Shown piece after piece: positions 9,777-40,626 of a DNA stretch of 64,000 nucleotides. The notes below the pieces were generated by a model. It saw only the letters and a program-made list of their open reading frames with translations, was not told the DNA's origin and made no database searches. Position 1 is the first letter of the stretch, and each line of letters starts with the position of its first letter. Made by a program: the position numbers and the translations under genes. Origin of the DNA: Escherichia phage UE-S1; the sequence record ON568341.1. The stretch is one strand, 5' to 3'.

Positions 9777-10931
9777 TTATTCGTTATAGCCAACAATAAC
9801 TACTGAGCAGTCAAGTGGTTCACCAACTTTTACAATTACGTTATCATCTTCATCAACTTGTAAATCACTATGAATTACCTGTTTATCAGAAGAATACAAT
9901 TGAACTTGTGGAAGTGCTTTACCATGTTCAGTTGCAGGAATGGATAGAGAATACATTGAGTCTTCATCATGTTTCCAATCACTTAACGCATATTCCTTGT
10001 GGAACGGTGTAGTATGTAGAGTTTTACCCATAATACGTAAAGATATAGGAGAATTATCAGTTTGTTGTACTGTAATATTACCTTTATCATCAACTGACAT
10101 ATCAACGCCTATTTGATGGGAATCCCCATTATATGTTTGGAGAACCAATTTATGTCCACGTTTATGAACATCATATGGTACTACAGCAGAGAATGCACCA
10201 TCAGGTGATGGTTGAAAATCTGACAAGTGAACAGGTGTAACAAAATCTACATCTTCACCATGTTCCTGAACATCAAACTCAACAACTTTAGTATTATAAT
10301 ATGGAGAAGTTAGGGTAGCAGTACCTTTTCCTTTTTGTGTAATTGCATCAACTTGGATTGTAAATGTATCACCAGCAAATTGAGTAGTAGTGTATTCTGT
10401 TCCTTCAGGTAAAACAATTTTGATTTCCATTGAATTGGTATCAATTTCGGAACCAGCATTGAATAACTTACCACTAATTGATTTGTCACCAACAAATACA
10501 GGTGAAATAATAATATTATCTATATCACGATCAATAATACTACATTCAGGTGTGTACATATTGTAAAGAGTTTTTGAACTTCCTAATATTGTTTTATGTA
10601 ATAGGAATTTATATACAAAGCCAGTATCAGCCTCTTGATGGTCATCCGAATGTCCACGAACAAAGAAACTATTTTTATTAATTTCACTTAATAGTTCGTC
10701 AGTTGATTTACTATAATTTAATAGATAACCTTTATTATCTTTTGTTGTTAATTGGACTTTACGATAGATTATATTAGTTCTAGGATCAACTAAATCATAT
10801 AATTTATGACTTCTCTGACGATAGATTCTAATATTTTTTAGTTTAGATCCGTCATTAAGAATCGCACCATCAACGATATAACCACATTCACCAAACTTAT
10901 ATCTTCCAGCCGCTGCAATTGATCTTGACAT
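9777..10931 (-). CDS. hypothetical protein (384 aa)
   Basis: Track ORF on minus strand, GGAGGAAT RBS, convergent with 8926-9735. Confidence 0.6.
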   Translation of the reverse strand: MSRSIAAAGRYKFGECGYIVDGAILNDGSKLKNIRIYRQRSHKLYDLVDPRTNIIYRKVQLTTKDNKGYLLNYSKSTDELLSEINKNSFFVRGHSDDHQEADTGFVYKFLLHKTILGSSKTLYNMYTPECSIIDRDIDNIIISPVFVGDKSISGKLFNAGSEIDTNSMEIKIVLPEGTEYTTTQFAGDTFTIQVDAITQKGKGTATLTSPYYNTKVVEFDVQEHGEDVDFVTPVHLSDFQPSPDGAFSAVVPYDVHKRGHKLVLQTYNGDSHQIGVDMSVDDKGNITVQQTDNSPISLRIMGKTLHTTPFHKEYALSDWKHDEDSMYSLSIPATEHGKALPQVQLYSSDKQVIHSDLQVDEDDNVIVKVGEPLDCSVVIVGYNE

Positions 10932-13292: not shown

Positions 13293-13712
13293 ATGTTCAC
13301 ACTAAGTAATACAAAATATCTTTTTCTTATTAGTATTATTGGTTGGGTTATGGCTCCAGTGCTAAATGCACTGGGGTTTTCAGATGAACACAAACTTGTC
13401 ATCGTTTCAGGCGTAATTCAGGGTATTTCATGGTATACATTGATTATATTTTCAGTGTGTATCAATACCTTTGCCCGTGATTATCGACGTTTTTTATATC
13501 TGAAAGTATTCGGTACTACGCGATACAGTTTTGTTTATACTTTTATTTTAGTACCGTGCATGTTATATGCATTTGTATTTGATTACTATACATACCTATG
13601 GGTATGTGGAACTATGTTTGTCATGTTAGAATACATCAGAACAGTACAAAACTCATATGCTGACGAGTATTATGATTTAGAAGTTAAACGACAATTAACG
13701 GAGATAAACTAA
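13293..13712 (+). CDS. small multi-pass membrane protein
   Basis: Several hydrophobic segments. Confidence 0.5.
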   Translation: MFTLSNTKYLFLISIIGWVMAPVLNALGFSDEHKLVIVSGVIQGISWYTLIIFSVCINTFARDYRRFLYLKVFGTTRYSFVYTFILVPCMLYAFVFDYYTYLWVCGTMFVMLEYIRTVQNSYADEYYDLEVKRQLTEIN

Positions 13713-14137
13713 TGAGAGCGTATAATAAGATTTGTATTTTTGTATTTTTAGTTTGTGCATTCAATTCATTTGGATACTACTGCGTTGAAAACAACATTTC
13801 ATATGGTTTAAATCCGTTATGGTTTTCAATTGCCAATGTAGTTCAAATTGGTATTGCTGTCATGTCCGCACTTATGTTCTGTCCAATTGTCACGATAGAT
13901 AGTGAATATGAAAAGCTTGGATTTCTACGTGATACGGGAGATGAACCTTACAATAGATTGATCGTATTGTATCCATTTTTAATGATGTTAGGTATTAATA
14001 TTCAACTAGGTGCAACAACCAACAGTATTACATCAGCAGCCATTGCTGTATTTGCATTCACATTTTTAACGATTCACCGCTCTATAAGTCATTGGTACAT
14101 TGCAAAAATGGCAGAGGAAGGTACTCAAAATACTTGA
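13712..14137 (+). CDS. small multi-pass membrane protein
   Basis: Hydrophobic segments; ATG overlaps previous stop. Confidence 0.5.
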   Translation: MRAYNKICIFVFLVCAFNSFGYYCVENNISYGLNPLWFSIANVVQIGIAVMSALMFCPIVTIDSEYEKLGFLRDTGDEPYNRLIVLYPFLMMLGINIQLGATTNSITSAAIAVFAFTFLTIHRSISHWYIAKMAEEGTQNT

Positions 14138-22508: not shown

Positions 22509-23171
22509 ATGTTAGTAAATCTTAATTTCATCACTTCTCCTGATTGGGCATTACGTGGTGTTTCTTTGAACTTTAAAGAAACTAATTTCGACTACATTGG
22601 GGATTGTACTTTAGTTAATGCTACATTTGATCCTCATCATCCTTTTTGGGCTAAGATTCATGATCCTAATGTAAACAATAGTGTATCTGTTATGACTATT
22701 GTACAGACGAAATATCCTGGCATTCTCGCAGGAGAACATCCTAAAGTTGCAATTAATCATTTCACTGATTATGATGTAGTAGATGAGTATCCAATGATTC
22801 ATAAAGATGGAAGTTTATACACATCTGAAGACGTTCGTGCTATCTTTAATAGTACTGATGATATTCTACCAAGTGGACGAACACGTCCTAAGTCTTATCT
22901 TATGCATTCATCTTATGGTGTAGCAGATACGCTTGAGCAGATTATGAAGAAGTACAAGAACCTAATTGAAGGTCCAGAAGAAGTTGTCATGTGCTATTAT
23001 CCAGTACTGAAATCAGACCAGCCAAAGAGTGGTGGGTGGCGTTGGCATAAAAACGGTGAGTACATTGGAAATAAACGTAGCAAAGAACGTTTTGAGTACT
23101 TGTATGATGAACCCGATATTGATGTTGTTTTGTGTTATAACTTCCTTAAGGTGAAAAAGAAATGTATCTAG
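22509..23171 (+). CDS. hypothetical protein (220 aa)
   Basis: Track ORF with GAGGA RBS. Confidence 0.55.
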   Translation: MLVNLNFITSPDWALRGVSLNFKETNFDYIGDCTLVNATFDPHHPFWAKIHDPNVNNSVSVMTIVQTKYPGILAGEHPKVAINHFTDYDVVDEYPMIHKDGSLYTSEDVRAIFNSTDDILPSGRTRPKSYLMHSSYGVADTLEQIMKKYKNLIEGPEEVVMCYYPVLKSDQPKSGGWRWHKNGEYIGNKRSKERFEYLYDEPDIDVVLCYNFLKVKKKCI

Positions 23172-23398
23172 TATTGAGTATTGTAACTGCACTATTGTTT
23201 ATGTTTTACCCTACACTAGTAGCACTAGTTACAAGACGAACTGTTGGAGATATCACTACAGTATTCTTGTTAAACGTGGTTCTGGCACTAGTGTCTATTA
23301 AAATCCCAGTAACCCCCACTGTTATTGATACGGTAACAGTATTTCTCTTTGTTTTCAGTTATCTTATGCTTATCGATGAGAAACCTGTTGACAAATAA
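23162..23398 (+). CDS. small membrane protein (78 aa)
   Basis: Two hydrophobic helices. Confidence 0.5.
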   Translation: MYLVLSIVTALLFMFYPTLVALVTRRTVGDITTVFLLNVVLALVSIKIPVTPTVIDTVTVFLFVFSYLMLIDEKPVDK

Positions 23399-23457: not shown

Positions 23458-23778
23458 ATGTTATCAGTATTGTTTTCAATTCCATCTTTAATTCTAATTT
23501 GGATTATTGTGTATGAATGTTTTATTGTAGATGATACGGAGAAAAAAGAATTCAATGAGTTATTCATGCTTGATACGCCAGTTGTCCGCATTTTCTATTC
23601 TGTAGTTATCGTTTCAGTACTTGCATGGATTGTAAGTTTTATCTTCCCAATGGGTGCAATCATTAATGTATTGAATTTGGTTGAAAACACTATTGCTATT
23701 CTATGGCTTATCAAAGCGTGGTATGTAGGAAATGTTAATATTTGGATTGATATTGTTAAATCTAAATTTACAAAATAA
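23458..23778 (+). CDS. small membrane protein (106 aa)
   Basis: Hydrophobic segments; GAGGG RBS. Confidence 0.5.
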   Translation: MLSVLFSIPSLILIWIIVYECFIVDDTEKKEFNELFMLDTPVVRIFYSVVIVSVLAWIVSFIFPMGAIINVLNLVENTIAILWLIKAWYVGNVNIWIDIVKSKFTK

Positions 23779-24240: not shown

Positions 24241-24618
24241 ATGATAGATTCTATTGTAATTGGGTTGATAAGTATTCCATTTATTTTGTCTTTTATAATT
24301 TCCATATGCATGATTGTGTATTTTATATTTGCTGGAATGTATTTTGTTTTAACAAACAAGTATATTTTTATTTCTAAGCTTGATTCAATATTTGCATGTG
24401 AAACTTTAGCTTACAACTTATGGATAATCTGCTCTAGTATTATGGGGTTGACTTACCTTTTATATAAATTTGATTTTATTAATGTAAATATTGTATATAT
24501 TAGTGCTGGATTAGCATTATATCCTGCTACATGGTACTTGATTTATGTTGTGGACATATGGTATAGTACTTACAAAGAATACCAGTGTAAGAAATCATTA
24601 AAAGTTGAGAGGAATTGA
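24241..24618 (+). CDS. small multi-pass membrane protein (125 aa)
   Basis: Hydrophobic segments. Confidence 0.5.
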   Translation: MIDSIVIGLISIPFILSFIISICMIVYFIFAGMYFVLTNKYIFISKLDSIFACETLAYNLWIICSSIMGLTYLLYKFDFINVNIVYISAGLALYPATWYLIYVVDIWYSTYKEYQCKKSLKVERN

Positions 24619-29322: not shown

Positions 29323-29358
29323 GTTATCATAGCTTTCCTAACTACAAAGGATGACGTG

Positions 29359-30000
29359 ATGACTAAGCAAGAAATATTCAAAACATTAATTGACATTTTA
29401 CGTTCATCTAAAACTCGTTGTGCAATGGAGTTTGATATTCCTTACGCTGAACGAGTCATCTTTCCACAAGTAAAAGCGGCAGGTCTTACTTTACTTGGTA
29501 TGGGGATGTACTCTGTAGTAGTTGAACATAAAAACTATCCAGGTCGTGCATTTAAAGTAACCACGTCACGATGGGATGGTTTTCGTGCTTATGCAAAGTA
29601 CTGTATTGATAACACAGGAACTAAGTTTCTTCCTGTAATATACAGTGCAAATGAACAAGGAAACTTTGGATGGTATGAAATGGATAAGTACTACCCTATC
29701 ATTAAACAAAAAAATAATTATGATGACTTTGTTAGTACTAAAATTGGAGATTTGTATTCGTATGCACATGCTGGTCAGTACGCAACTTCAGTGAATGAAC
29801 TGCGTGGAAATTCAGAAGAGATTGCCATTGCAACTGTTGCAGCTAACATAATGAAAGAGTTTCATGGTCGTTTTGTACCAGACATTCATTCCAGTAATGT
29901 GATGATGGATAAAGATGGAAATTTATTCATCACTGACCCTATTTCGTGTGATGTACGTCGAGAAATACCAATCACTGAAGAAGACCCAATTTTTTATTGA
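29359..30000 (+). CDS. protein-kinase-fold protein (putative kinase or phosphotransferase)
   Basis: DIHSSNVMMDKDGNLFITD matches catalytic-loop D..N and DFG-like spacing of eukaryotic-like kinases. Confidence 0.45.
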   Translation: MTKQEIFKTLIDILRSSKTRCAMEFDIPYAERVIFPQVKAAGLTLLGMGMYSVVVEHKNYPGRAFKVTTSRWDGFRAYAKYCIDNTGTKFLPVIYSANEQGNFGWYEMDKYYPIIKQKNNYDDFVSTKIGDLYSYAHAGQYATSVNELRGNSEEIAIATVAANIMKEFHGRFVPDIHSSNVMMDKDGNLFITDPISCDVRREIPITEEDPIFY

Positions 30001-30063
30001 CAGAACTTGTGTTCTGGTGTATATTAAGTGAATTATAAACAAATTGTGACACAGGATTAAATC

Positions 30064-30346: not shown

Positions 30347-30685
30347 ATGGAACAATATTTTGAATTAATTAATAAAGTGTCATTCTATGTAGTGTCATTG
30401 ATGTGGGTTTATTTCATGTTTTGCTACATTATTGCATTCTTCCGATACACTACTTTATATGAACGTATCTATTATGATGCACCGATTTCATTCTTGGTAT
30501 TCTGTGCGTGTACGTGGGGAATATTAGAAGTACTGATATGTGGATATAGTACTGATGAATTAAATCTGGTATCGGTATTGACTGGGTTATCACTTGGCGT
30601 TATGATATCTTTCTTTCCAGTATGGTTGTTCTTTGAGCTGTTCCATCGCATTGATGTATGGCGTTCTAATATCCCTGAAAAATAA
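30347..30685 (+). CDS. small membrane protein, paralogue family A (1 of 3)
   Basis: 3-4 hydrophobic helices; C-terminal tail R.NIPEK. Confidence 0.55.
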   Translation: MEQYFELINKVSFYVVSLMWVYFMFCYIIAFFRYTTLYERIYYDAPISFLVFCACTWGILEVLICGYSTDELNLVSVLTGLSLGVMISFFPVWLFFELFHRIDVWRSNIPEK

Positions 30686-30688
30686 GGA

Positions 30689-31036
30689 TTGATAATGATT
30701 TATTACACTAACGTGTTTGCCTATGCTGTTGCTTGCATTTACATTGTTTACTTCTTATTTGGTGGAGTGCTTTACTTCTTTAAGTACAAAACACTGTTTA
30801 ATAGGATGTATCCAAATCACCCTATCGTAGTTGTACTTTTGATTCTTTCTGTTTCCCAAATAATCGTTGAAACTACAATGGGTATCAGTAGTGTACATTA
30901 TAGCTTCGGTACTATAGTAATTATTACTATGCTTATTGCATACATTTTAGTACTTGGATATGGTATATTTGGTAATGTTGGAATGAAAATGTATCATCGA
31001 ATTAAAACCTTACGTGATAATCTACCGGAGCGTTAA
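30689..31036 (+). CDS. small membrane protein, paralogue family A (2 of 3)
   Basis: Shared FxYxTLxxRxY motif and tail LRDNLPER. Confidence 0.55.
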   Translation: MIMIYYTNVFAYAVACIYIVYFLFGGVLYFFKYKTLFNRMYPNHPIVVVLLILSVSQIIVETTMGISSVHYSFGTIVIITMLIAYILVLGYGIFGNVGMKMYHRIKTLRDNLPER

Positions 31037-31037
31037 T

Positions 31038-31382
31038 ATGTATAATTTAAACCTAATCTCATATATTATAACAACACTGTTTACATTCTATGCCTTTGTT
31101 GGTATAATCCTACTGTACTTTAAATTTTATAAAGTGTTTAACCGTTTCTATCCTTCAATGGAGAATGAGTTTTTCTTTGTGTTGTACGTAGGTTACACAT
31201 TAATGGCTACATGTTTCACTGTAGCCGATGGTGTCATCGGCATTAAAACTGATGCACCAAATGGTAGTACGCTGGTTGCATTTATTCTTACCGGATTCCT
31301 TGCAACTTATATTGCCTTCATTACAACATGGTCAGTAGTTGAATTTCTCTTGCGACTACGTAAGAATATGCCGAATCGATAG
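31038..31382 (+). CDS. small membrane protein, paralogue family A (3 of 3)
   Basis: Track ORF 31014 (GTG) trimmed to ATG after GGAG; tail LRKNMPNR. Confidence 0.5.
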   Translation: MYNLNLISYIITTLFTFYAFVGIILLYFKFYKVFNRFYPSMENEFFFVLYVGYTLMATCFTVADGVIGIKTDAPNGSTLVAFILTGFLATYIAFITTWSVVEFLLRLRKNMPNR

Positions 31383-32884: not shown

Positions 32885-33136
32885 ATGAAAATTTTATTAG
32901 TTCTAATACTACTAGTTGTTTTACCATTTACTTTAGTATCACCTGAACTTGCATGGAATGTGTTTGTGTACTTAGTATGTACTATTGTAGTAAATGGTAT
33001 CTTGTTCTTAGTTCTATTCATAAATGGAATAGGACACGGTGGAGGATGGACCAATACTGCTGATATTGTACATAAAACCACTATGTCTTTATTTGTTGTG
33101 TGGAATTTATTCTGGACTTGGTTTGTGTTCTTCTAA
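32885..33136 (+). CDS. small membrane protein (83 aa)
   Basis: Three hydrophobic helices. Confidence 0.5.
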   Translation: MKILLVLILLVVLPFTLVSPELAWNVFVYLVCTIVVNGILFLVLFINGIGHGGGWTNTADIVHKTTMSLFVVWNLFWTWFVFF

Positions 33137-33855: not shown

Positions 33856-34371
33856 ATGACACGCATTAACTTAGTACACGTTAAAGAACTTGCAGACCAA
33901 CATCTGATGGCTGAATATCGTGAACTACCACGTGTATTTGGTGCTGTACGAAAACACGTTCACGCACGTAAGCGTGTACGTGATTTCAAAATTAACAGTA
34001 CTTATCTGTTAGGTTCAGGTCATGTGACCTTCTTTTACGACAAGTTGCTGTACTTACAGAAGCGTCATATCGATATTGTCAACGAATGTTTGCGTCGTGG
34101 GATGAAGATTCAAAATACTGAAGTAAACGACATTAGCAGCTTCCCTGCTGAGTTTTGTAATGACTATGTACCATCGGAGTCAGAGATTAAAATGTCTCGT
34201 GATCGTTTGATTGAGAAGCTCCAGATGAAGCCTACGTGGTATAAGTTTACTGACGTTGAACGTCCACAGTACGTTAAAGATATTCAGGACGTAAGTAGTA
34301 ATATAGAATCTAGTACGGATATGTTAGACGAAATTGAAGAACAAATCAAAAATGAAATGAATAATTATTAA
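33856..34371 (+). CDS. denV: pyrimidine-dimer DNA glycosylase / AP lyase (T4 endonuclease V homologue)
   Basis: N-terminus MTRINL...[33 protein letters not shown]...[10 protein letters not shown] matches recalled T4 DenV, including catalytic Thr2 and Glu23; ~30-residue C-terminal extension. Confidence 0.85.
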
Positions 34372-34409: not shown

Positions 34410-34604
34410 ATGTTATTAGTATATTCAAAGCGTTTCTGGATTTCTTTTATTGTACTATCGCTAATCGGCTTCGGTGTGAGTATGCTCTTTTCGTGGAATG
34501 AATTGGGCACATGGTATTATGAAGTCCCGTGGTACATGAAGATAGCTCCTTGTTACGCGGCTTTGTTCGTATCATTCCTTATTGTTGTCTTCAGCGAGGA
34601 TTAG
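34410..34604 (+). CDS. small membrane protein (64 aa)
   Basis: Two hydrophobic helices. Confidence 0.45.
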   Translation: MLLVYSKRFWISFIVLSLIGFGVSMLFSWNELGTWYYEVPWYMKIAPCYAALFVSFLIVVFSED

Positions 34605-35139: not shown

Positions 35140-35913
35140 ATGAACCGTACAGAGAAAGCACTCCAAATTGAAAAGAACTTCAACTCCATGATGGCAGCAC
35201 TGGAATGTCTTCTTGATACACAAACTAACTCGATCAACTCGCTGATCGTTTCTGGTAAAGGTGGTGTTGGTAAAACTTACAATGTTGACCAACGGTTACA
35301 GAAAGCTGATGACAACTTTGAAATCGACTACAAGAAAATCAGTGGTAAAGTAACTACTGTAGGTCTGTACGAAGCACTGTATCGTTCACGTCATGCTGCT
35401 TCAGTACTGTTACTTGACGACGTTGATATCTTCTCTGATGAAACGAATATTGATTTGCTTAAAGCTGTATTGGATACTTCTGAGAAGCGTGTAGTGTCTT
35501 ATGCTACATCTGCGAAGTACCTGGAACAGCAGGGTATCCCTAAACAGTTTGAATTCCGTGGTAAAGTAATCTTTCTGACTAACAAAAATCTGTCACAGAT
35601 TGCTAAAGGTAAAAGCAGTTTAGCACCACACATTGATGCACTGATTACTCGTAGTATCTTTGTTGACCTGCAACTGTTCACCAACGAAGAAGTTATGATT
35701 CACATTGAGAATATCATGAACAAAACTAACATCCTTGAGAACAATGGTGTTAACAAAAATGGTTGTAAAGCAATTTTGAACTGGATGTTGAGTAATGAAG
35801 ATCGTCTGCGTTCACCTTCACTGCGTATGCCAGTACTGATCGCTGGACTGTATAATAAATTCCCATATGATTGGGAGTCAATGGCAGAGAATATGTTCCT
35901 TGAGAAAATTTAA
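35140..35913 (+). CDS. P-loop NTPase (Walker A and B motifs)
   Basis: SGKGGVGKTY Walker A and LLLDDVD Walker B. Confidence 0.55.
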   Translation: MNRTEKALQIEKNFNSMMAALECLLDTQTNSINSLIVSGKGGVGKTYNVDQRLQKADDNFEIDYKKISGKVTTVGLYEALYRSRHAASVLLLDDVDIFSDETNIDLLKAVLDTSEKRVVSYATSAKYLEQQGIPKQFEFRGKVIFLTNKNLSQIAKGKSSLAPHIDALITRSIFVDLQLFTNEEVMIHIENIMNKTNILENNGVNKNGCKAILNWMLSNEDRLRSPSLRMPVLIAGLYNKFPYDWESMAENMFLEKI

Positions 35914-35966
35914 TTTCCATATTGACAGTACTAACAATGTGTAGTATTATACACTGGAGACACCTG

Positions 35967-36308
35967 ATGCGTATATTTTTTGAATCTAATATAATGCTTG
36001 GTATTACACTGATATACATGTTTGTATTCTTGTTTTATCATTCAATTGTAATTAGTCTTTGGTATTTTAAAAGGAAAATGGTTTTTAAATTATATTCGTA
36101 TGATAATGTATTCTTAGTTGTATATAGTATCATACAAGGTGGATTTGTTCTATTTGGTGTTATGACGTATGTGATTTATAGATTACAAATTGATAACACA
36201 CCATACATTACACAGTATGTTGTGTTCACAGGACTAATCGTATGGTTGTTGGTGTGTATCATGTATTTCATAATTAAAGCTCGTGATAGAATTAAAGGGG
36301 AGTTCTAA
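35967..36308 (+). CDS. small membrane protein, paralogue family B (1 of 8)
   Basis: Track ORF trimmed to ATG after GGAGA; tail ARDRIKGEF. Confidence 0.5.
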   Translation: MRIFFESNIMLGITLIYMFVFLFYHSIVISLWYFKRKMVFKLYSYDNVFLVVYSIIQGGFVLFGVMTYVIYRLQIDNTPYITQYVVFTGLIVWLLVCIMYFIIKARDRIKGEF

Positions 36309-36646
36309 TGTTAGAATTTTTTAAATCAGATGTGATGCTTAGTATTACATTGATTTATATGTTTGGGTTTTTATTTTATCATATACTAGTTGTAGTTCTA
36401 TGGTATTTTAAAAAGAAAATAGTTTTCAAACTGTATCCACCTAGTAATATTTTATTGTTTCTTTACACACTTATTCAAGGTATGTTTGTGATTGTTGGTG
36501 TTATCACTCACTTAATTTATTGTACTAATCCACATTTAAACTCGATAACACAATATGTTGTTTTCTTTGGGTTGTTCATTTGGTTAGTTGTATACTTAAT
36601 CCATCTCATTATTCATGGTAGAGATAAAATTCGCGGAGACTTCTAA
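36308..36646 (+). CDS. small membrane protein, paralogue family B (2 of 8)
   Basis: Highly similar to previous (ITLIYMFxFLFYH...WYFKRK); tail GRDKIRGDF; TAATG coupling. Confidence 0.55.
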   Translation: MLEFFKSDVMLSITLIYMFGFLFYHILVVVLWYFKKKIVFKLYPPSNILLFLYTLIQGMFVIVGVITHLIYCTNPHLNSITQYVVFFGLFIWLVVYLIHLIIHGRDKIRGDF

Positions 36647-36993
36647 TGTTTGAAGCTTATCTTGAGTTTTTAAGGAGTAGTCCAGTTGCACATTCACTTG
36701 CAGGGATTATTCTAACAACTTATGTAACATTTTGGGTAGTTATGTTTATAGGATGGTATTTTAAACGACAATTCTATAAACGTAATGTTGAAGATTTTAT
36801 GAATTCTGCAATTAATCAATCGTTGTTTGCATCAACATTTATTGCATGTATTGTAGCAACACTCACAGGAAAGGTACTACCAGCTTTTTCCGCAGTTTAC
36901 GGTACACTTGGGATGATATGTTTAACTTTTATATTGACCATTAAAATTTGTTGTGTTATGATTGAACTTCGAAACAAGATACCGGAGGAATGA
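36646..36993 (+). CDS. small membrane protein, paralogue family B (3 of 8)
   Basis: Hydrophobic helices, WYFKRQ motif, tail LRNKIPEE. Confidence 0.55.
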   Translation: MFEAYLEFLRSSPVAHSLAGIILTTYVTFWVVMFIGWYFKRQFYKRNVEDFMNSAINQSLFASTFIACIVATLTGKVLPAFSAVYGTLGMICLTFILTIKICCVMIELRNKIPEE

Positions 36994-37328
36994 TGGAGTA
37001 CTTTATTGATTTACTACCGTGGTATATGAAAGTTAGTACTTTGTACTATATTATTAGTGCTGGATTCTATTTCCTGATGTGGTTCTTTAAACGACCAATT
37101 TCAGTATTCATCTCTGACAACCTACTGCAATTAAAATTACACGCATGGTTTGGTATGTCCATGATTATGCCAATTATTCATTACTCGATGATTAGTAATG
37201 GTTTTCGTTCTAGTGGTGAGCCAGTTGTAATTGTATTTTATTGGGGTTCAACTATAGTATATGTCGGTTTTCTATTGTTCCCGATCATTCATAAATTACG
37301 TGCTAAAGTTCCTGATGCGAGGTACTAA
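36990..37328 (+). CDS. small membrane protein, paralogue family B (4 of 8)
   Basis: WFFKRP motif, tail LRAKVPDARY. Confidence 0.55.
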   Translation: MMEYFIDLLPWYMKVSTLYYIISAGFYFLMWFFKRPISVFISDNLLQLKLHAWFGMSMIMPIIHYSMISNGFRSSGEPVVIVFYWGSTIVYVGFLLFPIIHKLRAKVPDARY

Positions 37329-37642
37329 TGGATATAGTAACATTGATTTACACGTTGTATTCATTCTATTTTATTATGTGTTGGGTTGGATTTGTATTTG
37401 TACTCAAGATGTTTGATTATGTTGAAAGACAGATAAAAGATTTTTGTATTCCTTTTATCGGTTCAACCATTATTAGTGTTTCTTGTGTGTATTTTTTGGT
37501 GTTTGATCCACCAGATAACACTGCGATGATTGACTTCATGTTACTACCAACCACTATTATTTTTTTATGTAGTCTGATGCCACCTATTAGTCGTGGATTG
37601 ACTGAATTTAGACGCAAACAAAAGCGTAAAAGAGGGATGTAA
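37328..37642 (+). CDS. small membrane protein, paralogue family B (5 of 8)
   Basis: Hydrophobic; basic tail RRKQKRKRGM. Confidence 0.5.
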   Translation: MDIVTLIYTLYSFYFIMCWVGFVFVLKMFDYVERQIKDFCIPFIGSTIISVSCVYFLVFDPPDNTAMIDFMLLPTTIIFLCSLMPPISRGLTEFRRKQKRKRGM

Positions 37643-38010
37643 TGGAAATTGCTCTTATTATCTTAACTGCTATGCTGTTTATTAGTACTGTGGTTATAAT
37701 TGGTAAATTCTTTTGTGTATCATTTTTAGAAACGGTATACGATGAAATTGCTGATGATTATGAATTACAAGCCGGATTTTTTATTACGTATTGGCTTAGT
37801 TTATTTTGTCTAGTCATTGCTTGGATTTTGCATATCTTTAAATGGGGTATGGTAGATGGTGATCCTGTCATGGGAATTATTGTTCTAGTGTTTGGTATCC
37901 TTGGTGGTGCAGTGCATAATCTGATGGTTATCTGGCAAACTGTTCAATATGTTTTGGTTCCCTATTTTGAAAAGATGCACAGTACAATTAAAAAACGTAA
38001 ACGAGGTTAG
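37642..38010 (+). CDS. small membrane protein, paralogue family B (6 of 8)
   Basis: Hydrophobic; basic tail IKKRKRG. Confidence 0.5.
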   Translation: MEIALIILTAMLFISTVVIIGKFFCVSFLETVYDEIADDYELQAGFFITYWLSLFCLVIAWILHIFKWGMVDGDPVMGIIVLVFGILGGAVHNLMVIWQTVQYVLVPYFEKMHSTIKKRKRG

Positions 38011-38011
38011 T

Positions 38012-38374
38012 ATGAACGGGATAGAATTATCTTTCATTGGTCAATTACTAGTAATGGTGAATACTTTCATTTTCTCATTTATTGCATTGATGTGCATTGG
38101 AAAGTATTTCCACAAACGACCATTATCAAATTTATATGATGTAATAAAAAAGAAATATAGTCCAGCACACACTGTACTTATTAGTAGTTTCAATTTTGGG
38201 TTTGTTGTATTAATAATTGGATTGTTAACATCAACGTCGAATGTACTAATCTTCGGTCTTATGATTTGTTCATTGGTATTAGCAGCAATTATATGTTGTT
38301 TAGTACTGCACCTTGTAGTACTATTATATATAAAGCTCGTTGAAATCCATCAACGTTTAGGGATGAGGAAATAA
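38012..38374 (+). CDS. small membrane protein, paralogue family B (7 of 8)
   Basis: Track ORF 37949 trimmed to ATG after GAGG. Confidence 0.5.
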   Translation: MNGIELSFIGQLLVMVNTFIFSFIALMCIGKYFHKRPLSNLYDVIKKKYSPAHTVLISSFNFGFVVLIIGLLTSTSNVLIFGLMICSLVLAAIICCLVLHLVVLLYIKLVEIHQRLGMRK

Positions 38375-38375
38375 T

Positions 38376-38747
38376 ATGAGTTACCGTGAGATATTTTCCA
38401 TTATTTCAATTATTATGTTCAGTACTGGAACATTGGTGTGGGTATTATATTTTTTCTGTGTAGCACCAGTGTATAATATGTTATGTAATATTAAATCAAG
38501 TGCTGGATATATTACTTTTATGGTCTTTATGGGATATTATTGTCTAAGCATTTTAGGTGTTGTTTTGGTTGTTATATTAGATGTTGGACCGAATAGGGAT
38601 GGTCTGAAAATGTATGAGTTATTAACTATGTTTGGGTGTATGATACCAACAGCACTAATGTTTGTAGCTATTGGTGGTGGATGCATAAAGTTATACAATT
38701 ATTTAAAATCTATTCATCATTCCATTCACAATAAGCGTATGTCATAA
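38376..38747 (+). CDS. small membrane protein, paralogue family B (8 of 8)
   Basis: Hydrophobic helices; tail HNKRMS. Confidence 0.5.
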   Translation: MSYREIFSIISIIMFSTGTLVWVLYFFCVAPVYNMLCNIKSSAGYITFMVFMGYYCLSILGVVLVVILDVGPNRDGLKMYELLTMFGCMIPTALMFVAIGGGCIKLYNYLKSIHHSIHNKRMS

Positions 38748-38788
38748 TAAAAATCCAGTACTGAATAGTACTGGACTAATAAGGAGTT

Positions 38789-39439
38789 ATGATGAAATCA
38801 AAATTAGGTTTGTTTTATGGAAACTACTTCATTAAACAGCGTAAATTCATAAAAAAATACTTCTCTACAGAGAAATCTAGTCCTCTAATTTTTAAAAGAC
38901 CAAAATATAATTTTTACTTAGCTGGTGCTAAACAGTCTAAGAAATTCATTACATTTTTAAATAAAAACAAAATTAAAGCTTCTTATGTTGAAACCAGAAA
39001 GAACTCATCAATAATTCCTGGTGATTTTATTGAATACGGATGTTTCAATATTAAGCACAATGATAACACATACTTTATGGATATTGATTGTAATACATCA
39101 AATCTTTTTAACATTGTAATAAATCCATCAAAACAATATAATGTTTATGGTGATTCAATTATCAAATTAATAAGAAACAAAGATTGGTTTGATTTTGAAA
39201 TAAATGTTTTAGATGAAAACTTTGATGAAGTTCCAGTTAATCCTGAAATATGTGATATATTAAACAGTTTAAAAGGTAGTAGCTACAATATACCATCTGA
39301 TTTAATGTTCCAGTACTCATTAATCCATAAAGATATTGAACAGTACATTATGTGTGCTAAAATCTTGAATTATCTGTATGATGAATTTAAAATGAGTTCT
39401 AAAATAACAGCATATACTCTTTATAATATTTCTATATAA
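38789..39439 (+). CDS. hypothetical protein (216 aa)
   Basis: Track ORF, AAGGAG RBS. Confidence 0.55.
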   Translation: MMKSKLGLFYGNYFIKQRKFIKKYFSTEKSSPLIFKRPKYNFYLAGAKQSKKFITFLNKNKIKASYVETRKNSSIIPGDFIEYGCFNIKHNDNTYFMDIDCNTSNLFNIVINPSKQYNVYGDSIIKLIRNKDWFDFEINVLDENFDEVPVNPEICDILNSLKGSSYNIPSDLMFQYSLIHKDIEQYIMCAKILNYLYDEFKMSSKITAYTLYNISI

Positions 39440-39450
39440 TTTAAAATATT

Positions 39451-39476
39451 AAAGCCAGCACAAGAGCACTGGCTTT
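39451..39476. terminator. bidirectional terminator hairpin between convergent genes
   Basis: AAAGCCAG-loop-CTGGCTTT with flanking A/T runs. Confidence 0.55.
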
Positions 39477-39480
39477 AATA

Positions 39481-40626
39481 TTATTTTTTCCAAGGAAGTA
39501 ACGAAGTTGGAATCTTGATAGGTATATTTGATGCAGCAACATCAGGAAAATTTGCATCTCCACAAACATACAAATTATCGATTTCGTCAATCAATAATGT
39601 ATAGTTGTAACTTCTACAAAAACCGCTTAAGCCTCTTCCCTCTAATGCAGATAAATTCATTTCAGTGAATTGAGTTATATATGTTTCATTTGAACCAACA
39701 CCACATTGACCATTAGCATTTATACCACAAGTAAGCAATTTATTATTGTTTTGAATTACACATGATGGTCCAGCAAGGTTCGTACCTAGTTCACCTACAA
39801 CATTAACTTCACCTTTTAATGATAAATTTTGGATCACTGTACTCATAGGGACACGCGATGTATTTCCAACACCTGCTTGTCCTGAGCCATTAGTGGATGC
39901 AACTTTAACAGTACCGTCATTAAGAAAAATATAAGATGTTTCGATGGTATTAACTGCTTGTGTAGCTGTTGTTATTGTCGTATCCTGCTTGAATTTAAGT
40001 ACATTTGTTGTTGTTGAACCAGATATAAATGTAGCACCTGCGTACCAATAGGTTCCATCTTGAAGTACTAAACCAGTACTTCTAATTGAACACCCTGCAC
40101 TGCGAACATTTTCTATATGACTATATGTAAAGGTTGATACGATTGAAGATTCACCATTACCGAACACCCCACCAGTACCTGCACCACAGAAAAACCATTT
40201 ACCGTTTTTCAAAAATACACGCATACAAGCAGAAATAACCACACTATCAATATCACTTGCAGCTACACCAAAATCGGTAAAGAAATGAGTTATATCAATC
40301 CAATTACCACCAGTATTTGATGGGAGATGGGGAATTACAACTCTAGTCCCTGTGTACCAGATTGTATCATCATCTTTAATAACAAGAGTACCTTGAACAC
40401 CACCCCAATACCTTGTTACATTTGTATTAACAAGCCTCCACTCAGTAGATGATTCAGTGGAGCCATTACCACCTTGACCATAAGATGATGAGCCGTGCCA
40501 GTATAAATTTCCATTTTTATCTAAATAAAATTTTGCATCAGCCGAACATTGCAATCTGTATTTGAATACGGTTTTTGGTGCTGGTGCAATATTTGCATAT
40601 TTTAGCATTCTACCAAAAGGTAACAT
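39481..40626 (-). CDS. RCC1-like beta-propeller protein with conserved MLPFGRM N-terminus (array member 9, most downstream)
   Basis: N-terminus MLPFGRMLKYANIAP; repeats such as GSSSYGQGGNG, CGAGTGGVFGNG, CGINANGQCGVG. Confidence 0.7.
   Translation of the reverse strand: MLPFGRMLKYANIAPAPKTVFKYRLQCSADAKFYLDKNGNLYWHGSSSYGQGGNGSTESSTEWRLVNTNVTRYWGGVQGTLVIKDDDTIWYTGTRVVIPHLPSNTGGNWIDITHFFTDFGVAASDIDSVVISACMRVFLKNGKWFFCGAGTGGVFGNGESSIVSTFTYSHIENVRSAGCSIRSTGLVLQDGTYWYAGATFISGSTTTNVLKFKQDTTITTATQAVNTIETSYIFLNDGTVKVASTNGSGQAGVGNTSRVPMSTVIQNLSLKGEVNVVGELGTNLAGPSCVIQNNNKLLTCGINANGQCGVGSNETYITQFTEMNLSALEGRGLSGFCRSYNYTLLIDEIDNLYVCGDANFPDVAASNIPIKIPTSLLPWKK

What the first reader, a model, noticed from the sequence alone, without database searches (positions are those of the whole stretch)
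35967..38747. Eight tandem paralogous small membrane proteins, with a second three-gene family at 30347-31382
Eight consecutive ~105-125-aa genes each encode 3-4 hydrophobic helices with a WYFK(R/K) motif after the first helix and a short charged C-terminal tail; the first two are near-duplicates. A separate trio at 30347-31382 has the same architecture with N(I/L/M)P(E/N)(K/R) tails. Small phage inner-membrane proteins often act in superinfection exclusion, lysis timing or defence blocking, and tandem amplification suggests an arms-race family.
Basis: partly seen in the sequence, partly recalled or inferred. Interest (0 to 1): 0.65.

Follow-up and report, generated by a model that had tools for sequence, protein, structure and literature searches.

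The report
Conserved array of small phage membrane proteins
Eleven related genes for tiny three-helix inner-membrane proteins sit in two tightly packed, probably early operons of a ~350-kb E. coli jumbo phage; they form one uncharacterised family found only in this phage clade, so they are real and old, but their job (my best guess: early modification or guarding of the host membrane) is untested.

Summary
The window comes from an Asteriusvirus-like (121Q/PBECO4-type) jumbo coliphage. The eight ORFs at 35967-38747 and the trio at 30347-31382 are real genes: dN/dS is 0.03-0.53, each has a Shine-Dalgarno site, and orthologues occur across genera. Each has three hydrophobic segments, and K/R placement indicates N-out/C-in topology. 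By pairwise BLAST only A1/A2 (55% aa) and the trio are related. Profile-profile and leave-one-group-out HMM tests place all 11 in one superfamily, so the trio is not a separate family. The strict WYFK(R/K) motif occurs in 3 of 8; only the Phe is near-invariant. The array is ancient: seven subfamilies occur in nearly the same order in RaK2 and Muenster, and related arrays follow the NrdC.10-like ATPase gene in GAP32, Serratia BF, Munch and a 324-kb metagenomic contig. Recent duplications are few (A1/A2 here). The cistrons overlap or abut, and a near-consensus sigma-70 promoter precedes A1, predicting an early operon. Nothing matched Pfam, NCBIfam, PADLOC, PDB or BFVD; PHROGs says "unknown function". 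An exhaustive search of 1.84 billion representatives gave 26 hits. Function is unknown. My best guess is early inner-membrane takeover or exclusion; a holin role is unlikely.

The parts
35922..35950 (+). Near-consensus sigma-70-type promoter (TTGACA-17-TATTAT) 17 nt upstream of the A1 start codon
   Evidence: 11/12 match. The window has 31 such sites on the + strand against 2.5 expected. The same TTGACAGTACTA... element sits upstream of the array in 121Q, Ecwhy_1 and Turkey5. Its function is predicted, not shown.
35967..36308 (+). A1, 113 aa, 3-TM protein (WYFKRK; tail ARDRIKGEF). It is the diverged tandem copy of A2 and is present only in 121Q-type phages.
   Evidence: (55% aa identity to A2, E 6e-38). 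dN/dS is 0.15 against 121Q. Ecwhy_1, A4, Turkey5 and RaK2 have a single gene of this type.
36308..36646 (+). A2, 112 aa, 3-TM protein (WYFKKK; tail GRDKIRGDF); orthologue of 121Q gp225 and RaK2 ORF311
   Evidence: (phrog_19454, unknown function)
36646..36993 (+). A3, 115 aa, 3-TM protein (WYFKRQ; tail ELRNKIPEE); the hub of the profile network
   Evidence: phrog_19046, plus weaker hits to phrog_16874 'membrane protein' and phrog_19454; AF2 pLDDT 73; helices 13-38, 42-53, 55-76, 82-111
36990..37328 (+). A4, 112 aa, 3-TM protein (WFFKRP; tail KLRAKVPDARY). Its start overlaps the A3 stop codon (ATGA).
   Evidence: 37% identity to RaK2 ORF312, E 9e-19; A3 group against A4 group hhalign 96.6%
37328..37642 (+). 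A5, 104 aa, 3-TM protein (tail EFRRKQKRKRGM)
   Evidence: The 121Q copy is split by one extra T in a T-run.
37642..38010 (+). A6, 122 aa, 3-TM protein (GKFFCV; tail KMHSTIKKRKRG)
   Evidence: AF2 pLDDT 84.6, pTM 0.67; helices 2-23, 27-38, 40-65, 75-121
38012..38374 (+). A7, 120 aa, 3-TM protein (GKYFHKRP; tail EIHQRLGMRK). It links the GKFF subgroup (A6, A8) to the WYFK subgroup.
   Evidence: (A3 group-A7 group 81%, A6 group-A7 group 87%). There is no PHROG match. The start at 38012 agrees with the 121Q gp231 annotation.
38376..38747 (+). A8, 123 aa, 3-TM protein (tail SIHHSIHNKRMS); last cistron of the array
   Evidence: (38% identity to RaK2 ORF315, E 2e-22)
35140..35913 (+). T4 NrdC.10-like P-loop/AAA ATPase gene. 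It lies immediately upstream of the array in every Rak2-like genome examined (one to three small non-family ORFs intervene in some).
   Evidence: weak AAA_16/AAA hits. Synteny is shown. No family member was found among the four genes downstream of nrdC.10 in the T4-like phage RB14.
38752..38777 (.). 11-bp-stem hairpin 5 nt after the A8 stop codon, with no T-run on the + strand
   Evidence: sequence. Its role is unknown.
29997..30025 (+). Near-consensus sigma-70-type promoter (TTGACA-17-TATATT) ahead of orf30064 and the trio
30347..30685 (+). B1, 112 aa, 3-TM family member (tail WRSNIPEK); orthologue of 121Q gp207
   Evidence: (phrog_19285)
30695..31036 (+). B2, 113 aa, 3-TM family member (FFKYK; tail LRDNLPER); orthologue of 121Q gp208
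   Evidence: 31% identity to B1, E 2e-8; dN/dS 0.03
31038..31382 (+). B3, 114 aa, 3-TM family member (YFKFYK; tail LRKNMPNR); orthologue of 121Q gp209

Best explanation
What it is (well supported). The 11 genes form one clade-specific superfamily of about 105-125-aa inner-membrane proteins.
- Each has three TM helices in N-out/C-in orientation.
- An aromatic-basic motif ((W/Y/F)(Y/F)F(K/R)) sits at the cytoplasmic end of TM1, followed by a short juxtamembrane helix.
- A basic C-terminal tail follows TM3, often (R/H)-x-(K/N)-(I/L)-P-(D/E) or K/R-rich.
- The family arose by old tandem duplications in the ancestor of the Rak2-like jumbo phages. It is kept next to the NrdC.10-like ATPase gene and still gains and loses copies.

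How it is expressed (inferred from sequence).
- Host sigma-70 RNA polymerase probably transcribes each cluster early, from near-consensus promoters at 35922 and 29997.
- The cistrons are probably translationally coupled. Spacing is -4 to +1 nt within the eight-gene array and +1 to +9 nt in the trio. The SD of each downstream array gene lies inside the tail codons of the gene before it.

What it does (inference by analogy, not shown).
- The proteins insert into the E. coli inner membrane soon after infection and modify it for the phage.
- The most likely role is accessory: host takeover or protection. Examples are blocking entry or establishment of superinfecting phage DNA, or neutralising membrane-acting host factors.
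- Different paralogues would cover different targets, and they would act mainly through TM1 and the cytoplasmic face.
For: Real, constrained genes:
- dN/dS is 0.03-0.53 against 121Q and Ecwhy_1.
- Orthologues are present in 44 phage records.

One superfamily:
- hhalign links are A1/A2-A3 86%, A1/A2-trio 92%, A3-A4 96.6%, A3-A5 91%, A3-A7 81%, A3-trio 92%, A6-A7 87% and A6-A8 90%. Reversed-profile controls score at most 22.7.
- Leave-one-group-out HMMs recover every group: the best member of each left-out group scores 24-43 bits and decoys at most 11 bits, though the weakest orthologues of the A1/A2, A4 and A5 groups fall into the decoy range.
- Five other small TM ORFs tested from the window score nothing.

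Topology:
-, plus TMHMM/Phobius notes in the Muenster and GAP32 records.

Early operon:
- There are 31 near-consensus sigma-70 promoters on the + strand against 2.5 expected.
- One lies directly upstream of A1 and is conserved in relatives.
- Junction spacing and embedded SDs are shown.

Accessory and variable character:
- Detected copy number ranges from 2 to 11.
- Array proteins are 27-65% identical between phages whose DenV is 92% identical (A4) or whose NrdC.10 is 86-95% identical.
- One member is disrupted in the 121Q record.

Where conservation sits:
- The N-terminus, TM1, loop 1 and the C-tail are the best conserved regions. TM2 and TM3 are the least conserved, and loop 2 too at the largest distance.

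The known early phage membrane proteins T4 Imm and Sp, HK97 gp15 and P22 SieA act in exclusion (my own knowledge, not tested here).
Against: - There is no functional evidence at all. No homologue has a known function, and I found no transcriptome for this clade.
- The conserved parts face the cytoplasm, and at the largest distance (RaK2) the periplasmic loop is the least conserved part. This fits a cytoplasmic partner at least as well as a block to incoming DNA.
- Long-term one-to-one orthology, conserved gene order, tight coupling and constant linkage to an ATPase gene fit subunits of one complex better than independent exclusion factors.
- The promoter assignment is a consensus match only.
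Confidence: 0.4

Rival explanations
1. The paralogues are subunits of a single hetero-oligomeric inner-membrane complex made in fixed proportions. This complex works with the co-transcribed NrdC.10-like AAA ATPase, and in some genera with the DUF1190-type lipoprotein encoded after the array. It could serve as a membrane anchor or platform for a phage process.
For: - The array follows the ATPase gene in every Rak2-like lineage examined. In RaK2, Muenster and the 324-kb contig it has no separate promoter of its own.
- Seven subfamilies keep one-to-one orthologues and nearly the same order.
- Cistrons overlap or abut, which suggests coupled translation.
- The cytoplasmic-face motifs shared by all paralogues are the best conserved parts.
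- All genes are under purifying selection.
Against: - Copy number and composition vary widely (2-11 detectable members). Members can be duplicated, missing or disrupted, which is unusual for an obligate complex.
- The ATPase gene recombines independently of the array. It is 99% identical in CRJP21, which carries a 121Q-type array. It is 95% identical in Turkey5, whose array proteins are only 32-52% identical.
- T4-like phages have NrdC.10 without the array.
- No multimer prediction could be run.
Confidence: 0.22
2. The proteins are lysis regulators: holins, antiholins or pinholins for the clade's endolysin, which carries an N-terminal TM domain.
For: - The architecture matches class I holins: about 110 aa, 3 TMDs, N-out/C-in, charged C-tail.
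- No holin is mentioned in the CBB paper, and the clade's endolysin has an N-terminal TM domain (PMC5259590).
- One of 47 family members gives a weak Phage_holin_2 hit, E 6e-4.
Against: - The predicted promoter is an early sigma-70 type.
- No endolysin or spanin gene lies within the examined flanks. The endolysin is 121Q gp532, whereas the array is gp224-232.
- No window protein hits any holin model at E<=1 for A1-A8 or E<=0.1 for the trio.
- Foldseek against viral models gives no significant holin match.
- Eight to eleven conserved holin-like genes would be unprecedented.
Confidence: 0.08
3. One reading: a recently and rapidly amplified arms-race family, in which copy number itself is the adaptation.
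For: - Three lineage-specific duplications exist: A1/A2, RaK2 ORF309/310 and Turkey5 A5 x2.
- A1 diverged faster than A2 after duplication. A1 is 47% identical to the single Ecwhy_1 gene and A2 is 76%.
- Array proteins are far more diverged than flanking genes.
Against: - Most paralogues predate the Asteriusvirus/Alcyoneusvirus split and have too little pairwise similarity to be recent.
- Gene-wide dN/dS is below 0.55 for all.
- Only one repeat is detectable at the DNA level, the 71%-identical A1/A2 repeat.
Confidence: 0.12
4. The ORFs are spurious or decaying and have no function.
For: They are low-complexity hydrophobic ORFs in an AT-rich genome, and one orthologue is frameshifted in 121Q.
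Against: - dN/dS is well below 1, and every gene has an SD site.
- Frame, length and order are conserved across genera and in metagenomes.
- The 121Q frameshift is a single extra T in a homopolymer and may be a sequencing error.
Confidence: 0.01

Closest known systems
Orthologous 'hypothetical' or 'membrane' proteins of Rak2-like jumbo phages (121Q gp224-232 and gp207-209; RaK2 ORF309-316; Muenster gp554-561; GAP32 gp522-527; Serratia BF gp384-389). PHROGs 19454, 19046, 27396, 33258, 26405, 27618 and 19285.
   Same: These are the same family in the same position after the nrdC.10-like gene. They have the same 3-TM topology, which the GAP32 and Muenster records already note.
   Different: None has an assigned function. 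The databases split them into separate families. I found no paper describing them as one superfamily or as a conserved module. This window carries the 121Q-type extra copy (A1) and an intact A5.
Class I holins (lambda S105 type)
   Same: Size is about 105-125 aa, with three TM helices in N-out/C-in orientation and a short charged cytoplasmic C-tail (the holin features are from my own knowledge).
   Different: There is no sequence or fold match to holin families. The genes are not in a lysis cassette. The predicted promoter is an early type. There are eight to eleven copies rather than one gene with a dual start.
Early phage inner-membrane exclusion proteins (T4 Imm and Sp, HK97 gp15, P22 SieA)
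   Same: They are small inner-membrane proteins, with predicted early expression from host-type promoters, in a variable accessory region of a large lytic phage (the comparators are from my own knowledge).
   Different: No Imm-type or other Pfam family is matched by any window protein. Topology and size differ (Imm has 2 TMDs and Sp has 1). The known examples are single genes, not a conserved multi-paralogue array. No exclusion phenotype has been tested.
SPO1 host-takeover module / T4 early plasticity regions
   Same: Both have runs of small genes behind multiple strong host-type early promoters, with membrane proteins among them (the comparators are from my own knowledge).
   Different: There is no homology. 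Here the genes are paralogues of one family, with conserved order across genera.

Membership tests
Rak2-like jumbo-phage 3-TM protein superfamily (uncharacterised; PHROGs 19454/19046/27396/33258/26405/27618/19285) | Significant sequence or profile similarity to the orthologous groups in other Rak2-like phages | tested here: met
   PHROG E-values are 1e-48 to 1e-69 for 9 of the 10 proteins scanned: eight to their own family and B3 only weakly (4e-4) to phrog_19285; A7 has no PHROG match and B2 was not scanned. BLAST to RaK2 orthologues ranges down to 2e-22. hhalign and leave-one-group-out HMMs support the links.
Rak2-like jumbo-phage 3-TM protein superfamily | Three TM segments, N-out/C-in, with a basic C-terminal tail | tested here: met
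   Hydropathy and K/R distribution, AF2 models, and TMHMM/Phobius notes in the Muenster and GAP32 records
Rak2-like jumbo-phage 3-TM protein superfamily | Tandem array directly downstream of the nrdC.10-like ATPase gene | tested here: met
   Window genes 35140-35913 and then 35967-38747. The same synteny was seen in 14 other genomes or contigs.
Class I holins | Small protein with 3 TMDs, N-out/C-in, and a charged C-terminus | tested here: met
Class I holins | Match to a holin sequence family | tested here: not met
   No holin model matched any window protein at E<=1 (A1-A8) or E<=0.1 (trio). One of 47 family members gives a weak Phage_holin_2 hit, E 6e-4. NCBIfam gave nothing.
Class I holins | Gene located in a lysis cassette next to endolysin or spanin genes | tested here: not met
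   The neighbours are an ATPase gene and unknown ORFs. The clade's endolysin is 121Q gp532, far from gp224-232 (PMC5259590).
Class I holins | Late expression and lethal hole formation at a programmed time | not testable with these tools
   Only a consensus early-type promoter could be predicted. There are no expression or toxicity data.
T4 Imm-type superinfection immunity proteins | Sequence membership in the Imm family | tested here: not met
   No Pfam or NCBIfam hit
T4 Imm-type superinfection immunity proteins | Blocks DNA entry of superinfecting phage | not testable with these tools
   Requires efficiency-of-plating or DNA-injection assays
Known anti-phage defence components (PADLOC) | Match to a defence-system protein model | tested here: not met
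   Only chance-level hits, E of 0.03 or higher

The most novel reading that the evidence does not exclude
The array, its linked NrdC.10-like AAA ATPase and (in some genera) the DUF1190-type lipoprotein would together encode a previously unrecognised multi-subunit envelope machine. This machine would be specific to Rak2-like jumbo phages and built from 7-11 paralogous 3-TM subunits. It could, for example, anchor or drive a step that 350-kb genomes need early in infection.
Probability: 0.15. Interest if true: 0.7.

Novelty: new variant of a known kind. Interest (0 to 1): 0.4.

Why it matters
Rak2-like jumbo phages (121Q, PBECO4, RaK2, GAP32 and relatives) are being developed for therapy, yet by one published count 83% of their predicted gene products are of unknown function (phAPEC6 abstract, PMC7247149). 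This work merges 11 'hypothetical' genes, and at least seven separate PHROGs, into one clade-wide membrane-protein superfamily. The family has a defined topology, shared cytoplasmic motifs, a fixed partner gene and a predicted early expression programme. That gives a concrete and cheap experimental target: delete or express the array, then score exclusion, defence sensitivity, lysis timing and ATPase binding. If the proteins turn out to be exclusion or anti-defence factors, they bear on phage-cocktail design. If they form a complex with the ATPase, they would define a new phage membrane machine. As it stands, this is a solid family description without a demonstrated function.

Tried and rejected
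- Pairwise BLAST among the 11 proteins detects only A1/A2 and the trio, so it was not enough to test paralogy. Profiles were needed.
- Pfam, NCBIfam and PADLOC scans of the window proteins, and Pfam on 47 family members, gave nothing consistent.
- A profile search of all PDB sequences gave only chance hits: an opsin at E 0.05 and TMEM258 at E 0.2.
- Foldseek of both AF2 models against PDB (A3 model only) and BFVD gave no hit at E<=0.001. The best hit each time against BFVD was a putative membrane protein of the Rak2-like phage CBB.
- Two large-database searches and the exhaustive profile search found only jumbo-phage or metagenome relatives with no functional names.
- I looked for further family members elsewhere in the window and found none.
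- I checked whether T4-like phages carry the array after nrdC.10; they do not.
- I checked for a homologue of the Hallingskeid gene annotated as 'superinfection immunity protein' in the window. There is none, and that protein itself matches no Pfam family.
- Literature searches for a description of the array, for NrdC.10 function, or for an Asteriusvirus transcriptome found nothing useful.
- I rejected the idea that the conserved C-tail is only a by-product of the embedded SD of the next gene. The SD explains the last 2-3 codons (PEE, GEF, RGM, KRG). It does not explain the upstream (R/H)-x-(K/N)-(I/L) residues or the basic tails of the terminal genes A8 and B3.


Full report
**Origin of the window**

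The 4.5 kb around the finding matches 39 phage records by megablast, and the listed records with a taxonomy line are Asteriusvirus-type jumbo phages of about 350 kb (121Q, PBECO4, CRJP21, ph0011 and others). Identity is at most about 91%. The window therefore comes from a somewhat distinct member of this Rak2-like clade.

In the 121Q reference the eight genes are gp224-232 and the trio is gp207-209. All are annotated 'hypothetical protein'.

**The observation**

- The starts I use (35967 for A1, 38012 for A7, 30695 for B2, 31038 for B3) each have an SD site and agree with the 121Q annotation.
- Every protein has three hydrophobic segments.
- Lys and Arg concentrate in the loop after TM1 (1-6 per protein) and in the C-tail (2-8). 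The N-terminus (0-1) and the TM2-TM3 loop (0-2) are poor in them. This indicates N-out/C-in topology.
- AlphaFold2 gives the same architecture for two distant members. A3 has pLDDT 73 and A6 has pLDDT 85 with pTM 0.67. Each shows TM1, a short helix right after the aromatic-basic motif, TM2, a short loop, and a long TM3 helix that continues into the tail.
- The GenBank records of Klebsiella phage Muenster and Cronobacter phage GAP32 already annotate the orthologues as having 3 TMDs by TMHMM/Phobius.

**Are they paralogues?**

Pairwise BLAST is significant only for three comparisons: A1/A2 (55% identity over 110 aa, E 6e-38), B1/B2 (31%, E 2e-8) and B2/B3 (E 0.005).

I therefore built orthologue groups from five lineages (window, Ecwhy_1, A4, Turkey5, RaK2) and compared profiles.

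- Full-length collinear hhalign matches link the groups. The A1/A2 group matches A3 (score 37) and the trio (42). A3 matches A4 (58), A5 (40.5), A7 (36) and the trio (42). A6 matches A7 (38.5) and A8 (41).
- The best of 45 comparisons against reversed profiles scored 22.7.
- An HMM built from all groups but one recovers the left-out group each time: its best member scores 24-43 bits, against at most 11 bits for reversed sequences and all other window ORFs. The weakest orthologues of the A1/A2, A4 and A5 groups fall to 6-12 bits, within the decoy range.
- Five other small multi-TM ORFs tested from the same window give no hit at all, so the signal is not hydrophobic composition.
- No further member exists in the window.

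All 11 proteins are thus one superfamily, and the trio is not a separate family.

The strict WYFK[RK] motif is limited to A1-A3. Across 53 diverse members only the Phe (F39 of A3) is at least 90% conserved.

**Evolution**

The array is old.

- RaK2 and Muenster (Alcyoneusvirus) carry ORF309/310 (A3-type, duplicated), 311 (A1/A2-type), 312 (A4), 313 (A5), 314 (A6), 315 (A8) and an extra 316. All lie just after the nrdC.10-like gene, separated from it only by one or two small non-family ORFs.
- Escherichia phages A4 and Turkey5 have the seven types in the same order as the window. Turkey5 has two A5-type genes.
- A 324-kb metagenomic contig shows nrdC.10, then about ten small TM genes, then RCC1-like genes on the opposite strand, as in the window.
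- GAP32, Serratia phage BF, Munch, fENko-Kae01, EJP2, the Erwinia phage Hallingskeid and the Xanthomonas phage XbC2 also have runs of 3-TM genes after nrdC.10. Between 2 and 10 of these are detectable with the family HMM.
- The T4-like phage RB14 has nrdC.10 but no family member among the four genes that follow it.

The A1/A2 duplication is specific to 121Q-type phages. A2 is 76% identical to the single Ecwhy_1 gene and A1 is only 47% identical, so A1 is the fast-diverged copy.

Selection and divergence:

- Gene-wide dN/dS is 0.03-0.53.
- The proteins nevertheless diverge far more than their neighbours. Against phage A4, DenV is 92% identical but array proteins are 30-65%. Against Turkey5, EJP2 and Hallingskeid, NrdC.10 is 86-95% identical but array proteins are 27-52% or undetectable.
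- Part of this reflects recombination. NrdC.10 exists as two allele classes about 59% identical that are shuffled relative to the array. Synonymous divergence from 121Q also jumps from 0.04-0.08 (A3, A6, B3) to 0.26-0.43 in adjacent genes.
- Among orthologues, the N-terminus, TM1, loop 1 and the C-tail are the best conserved. TM2 and TM3 are the least conserved, and at the largest distance the periplasmic loop 2 is too.

**Expression signals**

- The window has 31 near-consensus sigma-70 promoters (at least 11 of 12 positions) on the + strand, against 2.5 expected. It has six on the - strand, and none ahead of the - strand RCC1-like genes.
- One (TTGACA-17-TATTAT, 35922-35950) lies 17 nt upstream of the A1 start. 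It is conserved in 121Q, Ecwhy_1 and Turkey5.
- In RaK2, Muenster and the metagenomic contig, the nearest such promoter precedes nrdC.10, so the ATPase and the array would be co-transcribed there.
- Another promoter at 29997 precedes orf30064 and the trio.
- Inside the eight-gene array, every junction is between -4 and +1 nt.
- The SD of each downstream gene is encoded by the last codons of the upstream tail: GGGGAG in ...GEF, CCGGAGGAA in ...PEE, AGAGGG in ...RGM.
- Part of the tail 'motif' is therefore doubly constrained. The upstream (R/H)-x-(K/N)-(I/L) residues and the basic tails of the terminal genes are not explained this way.

These are sequence predictions. I found no transcriptome for this clade.

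**Comparison with what is known**

- No window protein reaches any Pfam, NCBIfam or PADLOC threshold.
- Scanning 47 family members gives only scattered sub-threshold TM-type hits, including one Phage_holin_2 hit at E 6e-4.
- PHROGs places the genes in seven separate 'unknown function' families, and A7 in none.
- A family profile finds nothing in PDB sequences.
- Foldseek of both models finds nothing significant. The top viral hit each time is a putative membrane protein of the Rak2-like phage CBB.
- The exhaustive profile search of 1.84 billion cluster representatives returns 26 proteins. Two word-indexed searches return 29 and 15. The hits that carry names or long contigs come from jumbo-phage-sized contigs or named Rak2-like phages.
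- The CBB genome paper counts 43 'conserved putative membrane proteins', notes that the clade's endolysin (121Q gp532) has an N-terminal TM domain, and never mentions a holin (PMC5259590).
- Spanins of 121Q and PBECO4 have been catalogued elsewhere (PMC6139136).

**Interpretation**

The architecture resembles a class I holin. Against a holin role stand the predicted early promoter, the distance from the endolysin, the lack of any family match and the multiplicity of copies.

Several features fit an accessory host-takeover or protection role, as known for T4 Imm and Sp, HK97 gp15 and P22 SieA (my own knowledge):

- predicted early expression;
- inner-membrane location;
- variable copy number;
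- high divergence;
- position in a promoter-dense early region.

I commit to this as the most likely function, at about 0.4.

Other features fit a hetero-oligomeric complex working with the NrdC.10-like ATPase, at about 0.2:

- long-term one-to-one orthology;
- conserved gene order;
- tight coupling of cistrons;
- invariant linkage to the ATPase gene;
- conservation concentrated on the cytoplasmic face.

**Verdict**

This is a real, conserved and clade-restricted family of small 3-TM inner-membrane proteins. I describe it here as one superfamily and as one module linked to nrdC.10. Its function is unknown. Interest is moderate: it is a well-defined experimental target but not a surprise in kind.

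Noticed in passing
whole window, + strand (e.g. 4452, 10925, 12772, 14134, 19081, 19429, 23388, 32028, 56038, 57395): There are 31 near-consensus sigma-70 promoters (at least 11 of 12 positions; ten are perfect TTGACA-N16/17-TATAAT) on the + strand, against about 2.5 expected. The - strand has only six, and none lie ahead of the - strand genes at 39481 to about 53000. The + strand regions look like a T4/SPO1-style early region.
   Followed up: partly
35140-35913: The NrdC.10-like ATPase is 99% identical to ph0011 and CRJP21. It is 95% identical to Turkey5 and 86-89% identical to EJP2 and the Erwinia phage Hallingskeid. It is only 59% identical to 121Q, Ecwhy_1 and A4. There are two allele classes, shuffled by recombination relative to the adjacent array.
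   Followed up: partly
36646-36993, 37642-38010, 31038-31382: Synonymous divergence from 121Q is only 0.04-0.08 for A3, A6 and B3, but 0.26-0.43 for the genes next to them. This indicates gene-sized recombination patches inside the arrays.
   Followed up: no
L001 (121Q) 10264-10579, orthologue of window 37328-37642: The 121Q A5 orthologue is annotated as two genes (228/229) because of one extra T in a T6 run. It is either a pseudogene or a homopolymer sequencing error.
   Followed up: yes
39481-40626 (-) and further - strand genes to about 53000: A run of paralogous RCC1-like beta-propeller genes lies on the opposite strand. It converges on the array region and is conserved in position in 121Q, Ecwhy_1, Turkey5, Munch, BF and the metagenomic contig.
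   Followed up: no
13293-13712, 13712-14137, 23162-23398, 23458-23778, 24241-24618, 32885-33136, 34410-34604: These are further small predicted multi-TM proteins (2-3 TM segments each). None matches Pfam, and the five tested against the 3-TM family HMM (all but 32885-33136 and 34410-34604) do not match it. 13293-13712 and 13712-14137 are adjacent.
   Followed up: partly
38752-38777 and 39445-39482: There are two hairpins. An 11-bp stem lies just after A8, with no T-run on the + strand. A perfect 14-nt inverted repeat with a 10-nt loop lies between the convergent genes ending at 39439 (+) and 39481 (-), and is probably a bidirectional terminator.
   Followed up: no
L004 10076-10207 region, L007 3828-3956, L011 8769-8903, L012 7281-7409 (absent from the window): A conserved 42-44-aa soluble ORF (MKPEQWIIDDMR...LLQWYVKV...) lies inside or beside the membrane-protein array in RaK2, Muenster, Munch and the metagenomic contig; 129-nt ORFs in the same position in EJP2 and Hallingskeid were not translated. 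The window has no convincing copy.
   Followed up: partly
L005 6384-6935, L007 6779-7366, L013 9256-9891, L014 9549-10172: A lipoprotein gene follows the array in A4, Muenster, Serratia BF and GAP32; the GAP32 record assigns it to DUF1190, and the others share its N-terminal sequence and lipobox. A similarly placed RaK2 gene (ORF317) was not examined. In the window the array is followed instead by an unrelated 216-aa ORF at 38789-39439.
   Followed up: no
33856-34371 and 29356-30000: A T4 DenV-type pyrimidine-dimer glycosylase (94% identical to 121Q, 81% to RaK2) and a gene annotated in 121Q as a T7-like protein kinase lie in the same early region. The kinase gene lies just upstream of the trio's operon.
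   Followed up: no
whole window: The T4 late-promoter core TATAAATA is under-represented, with 3 occurrences on both strands against about 16 expected. None is near the arrays.
   Followed up: no
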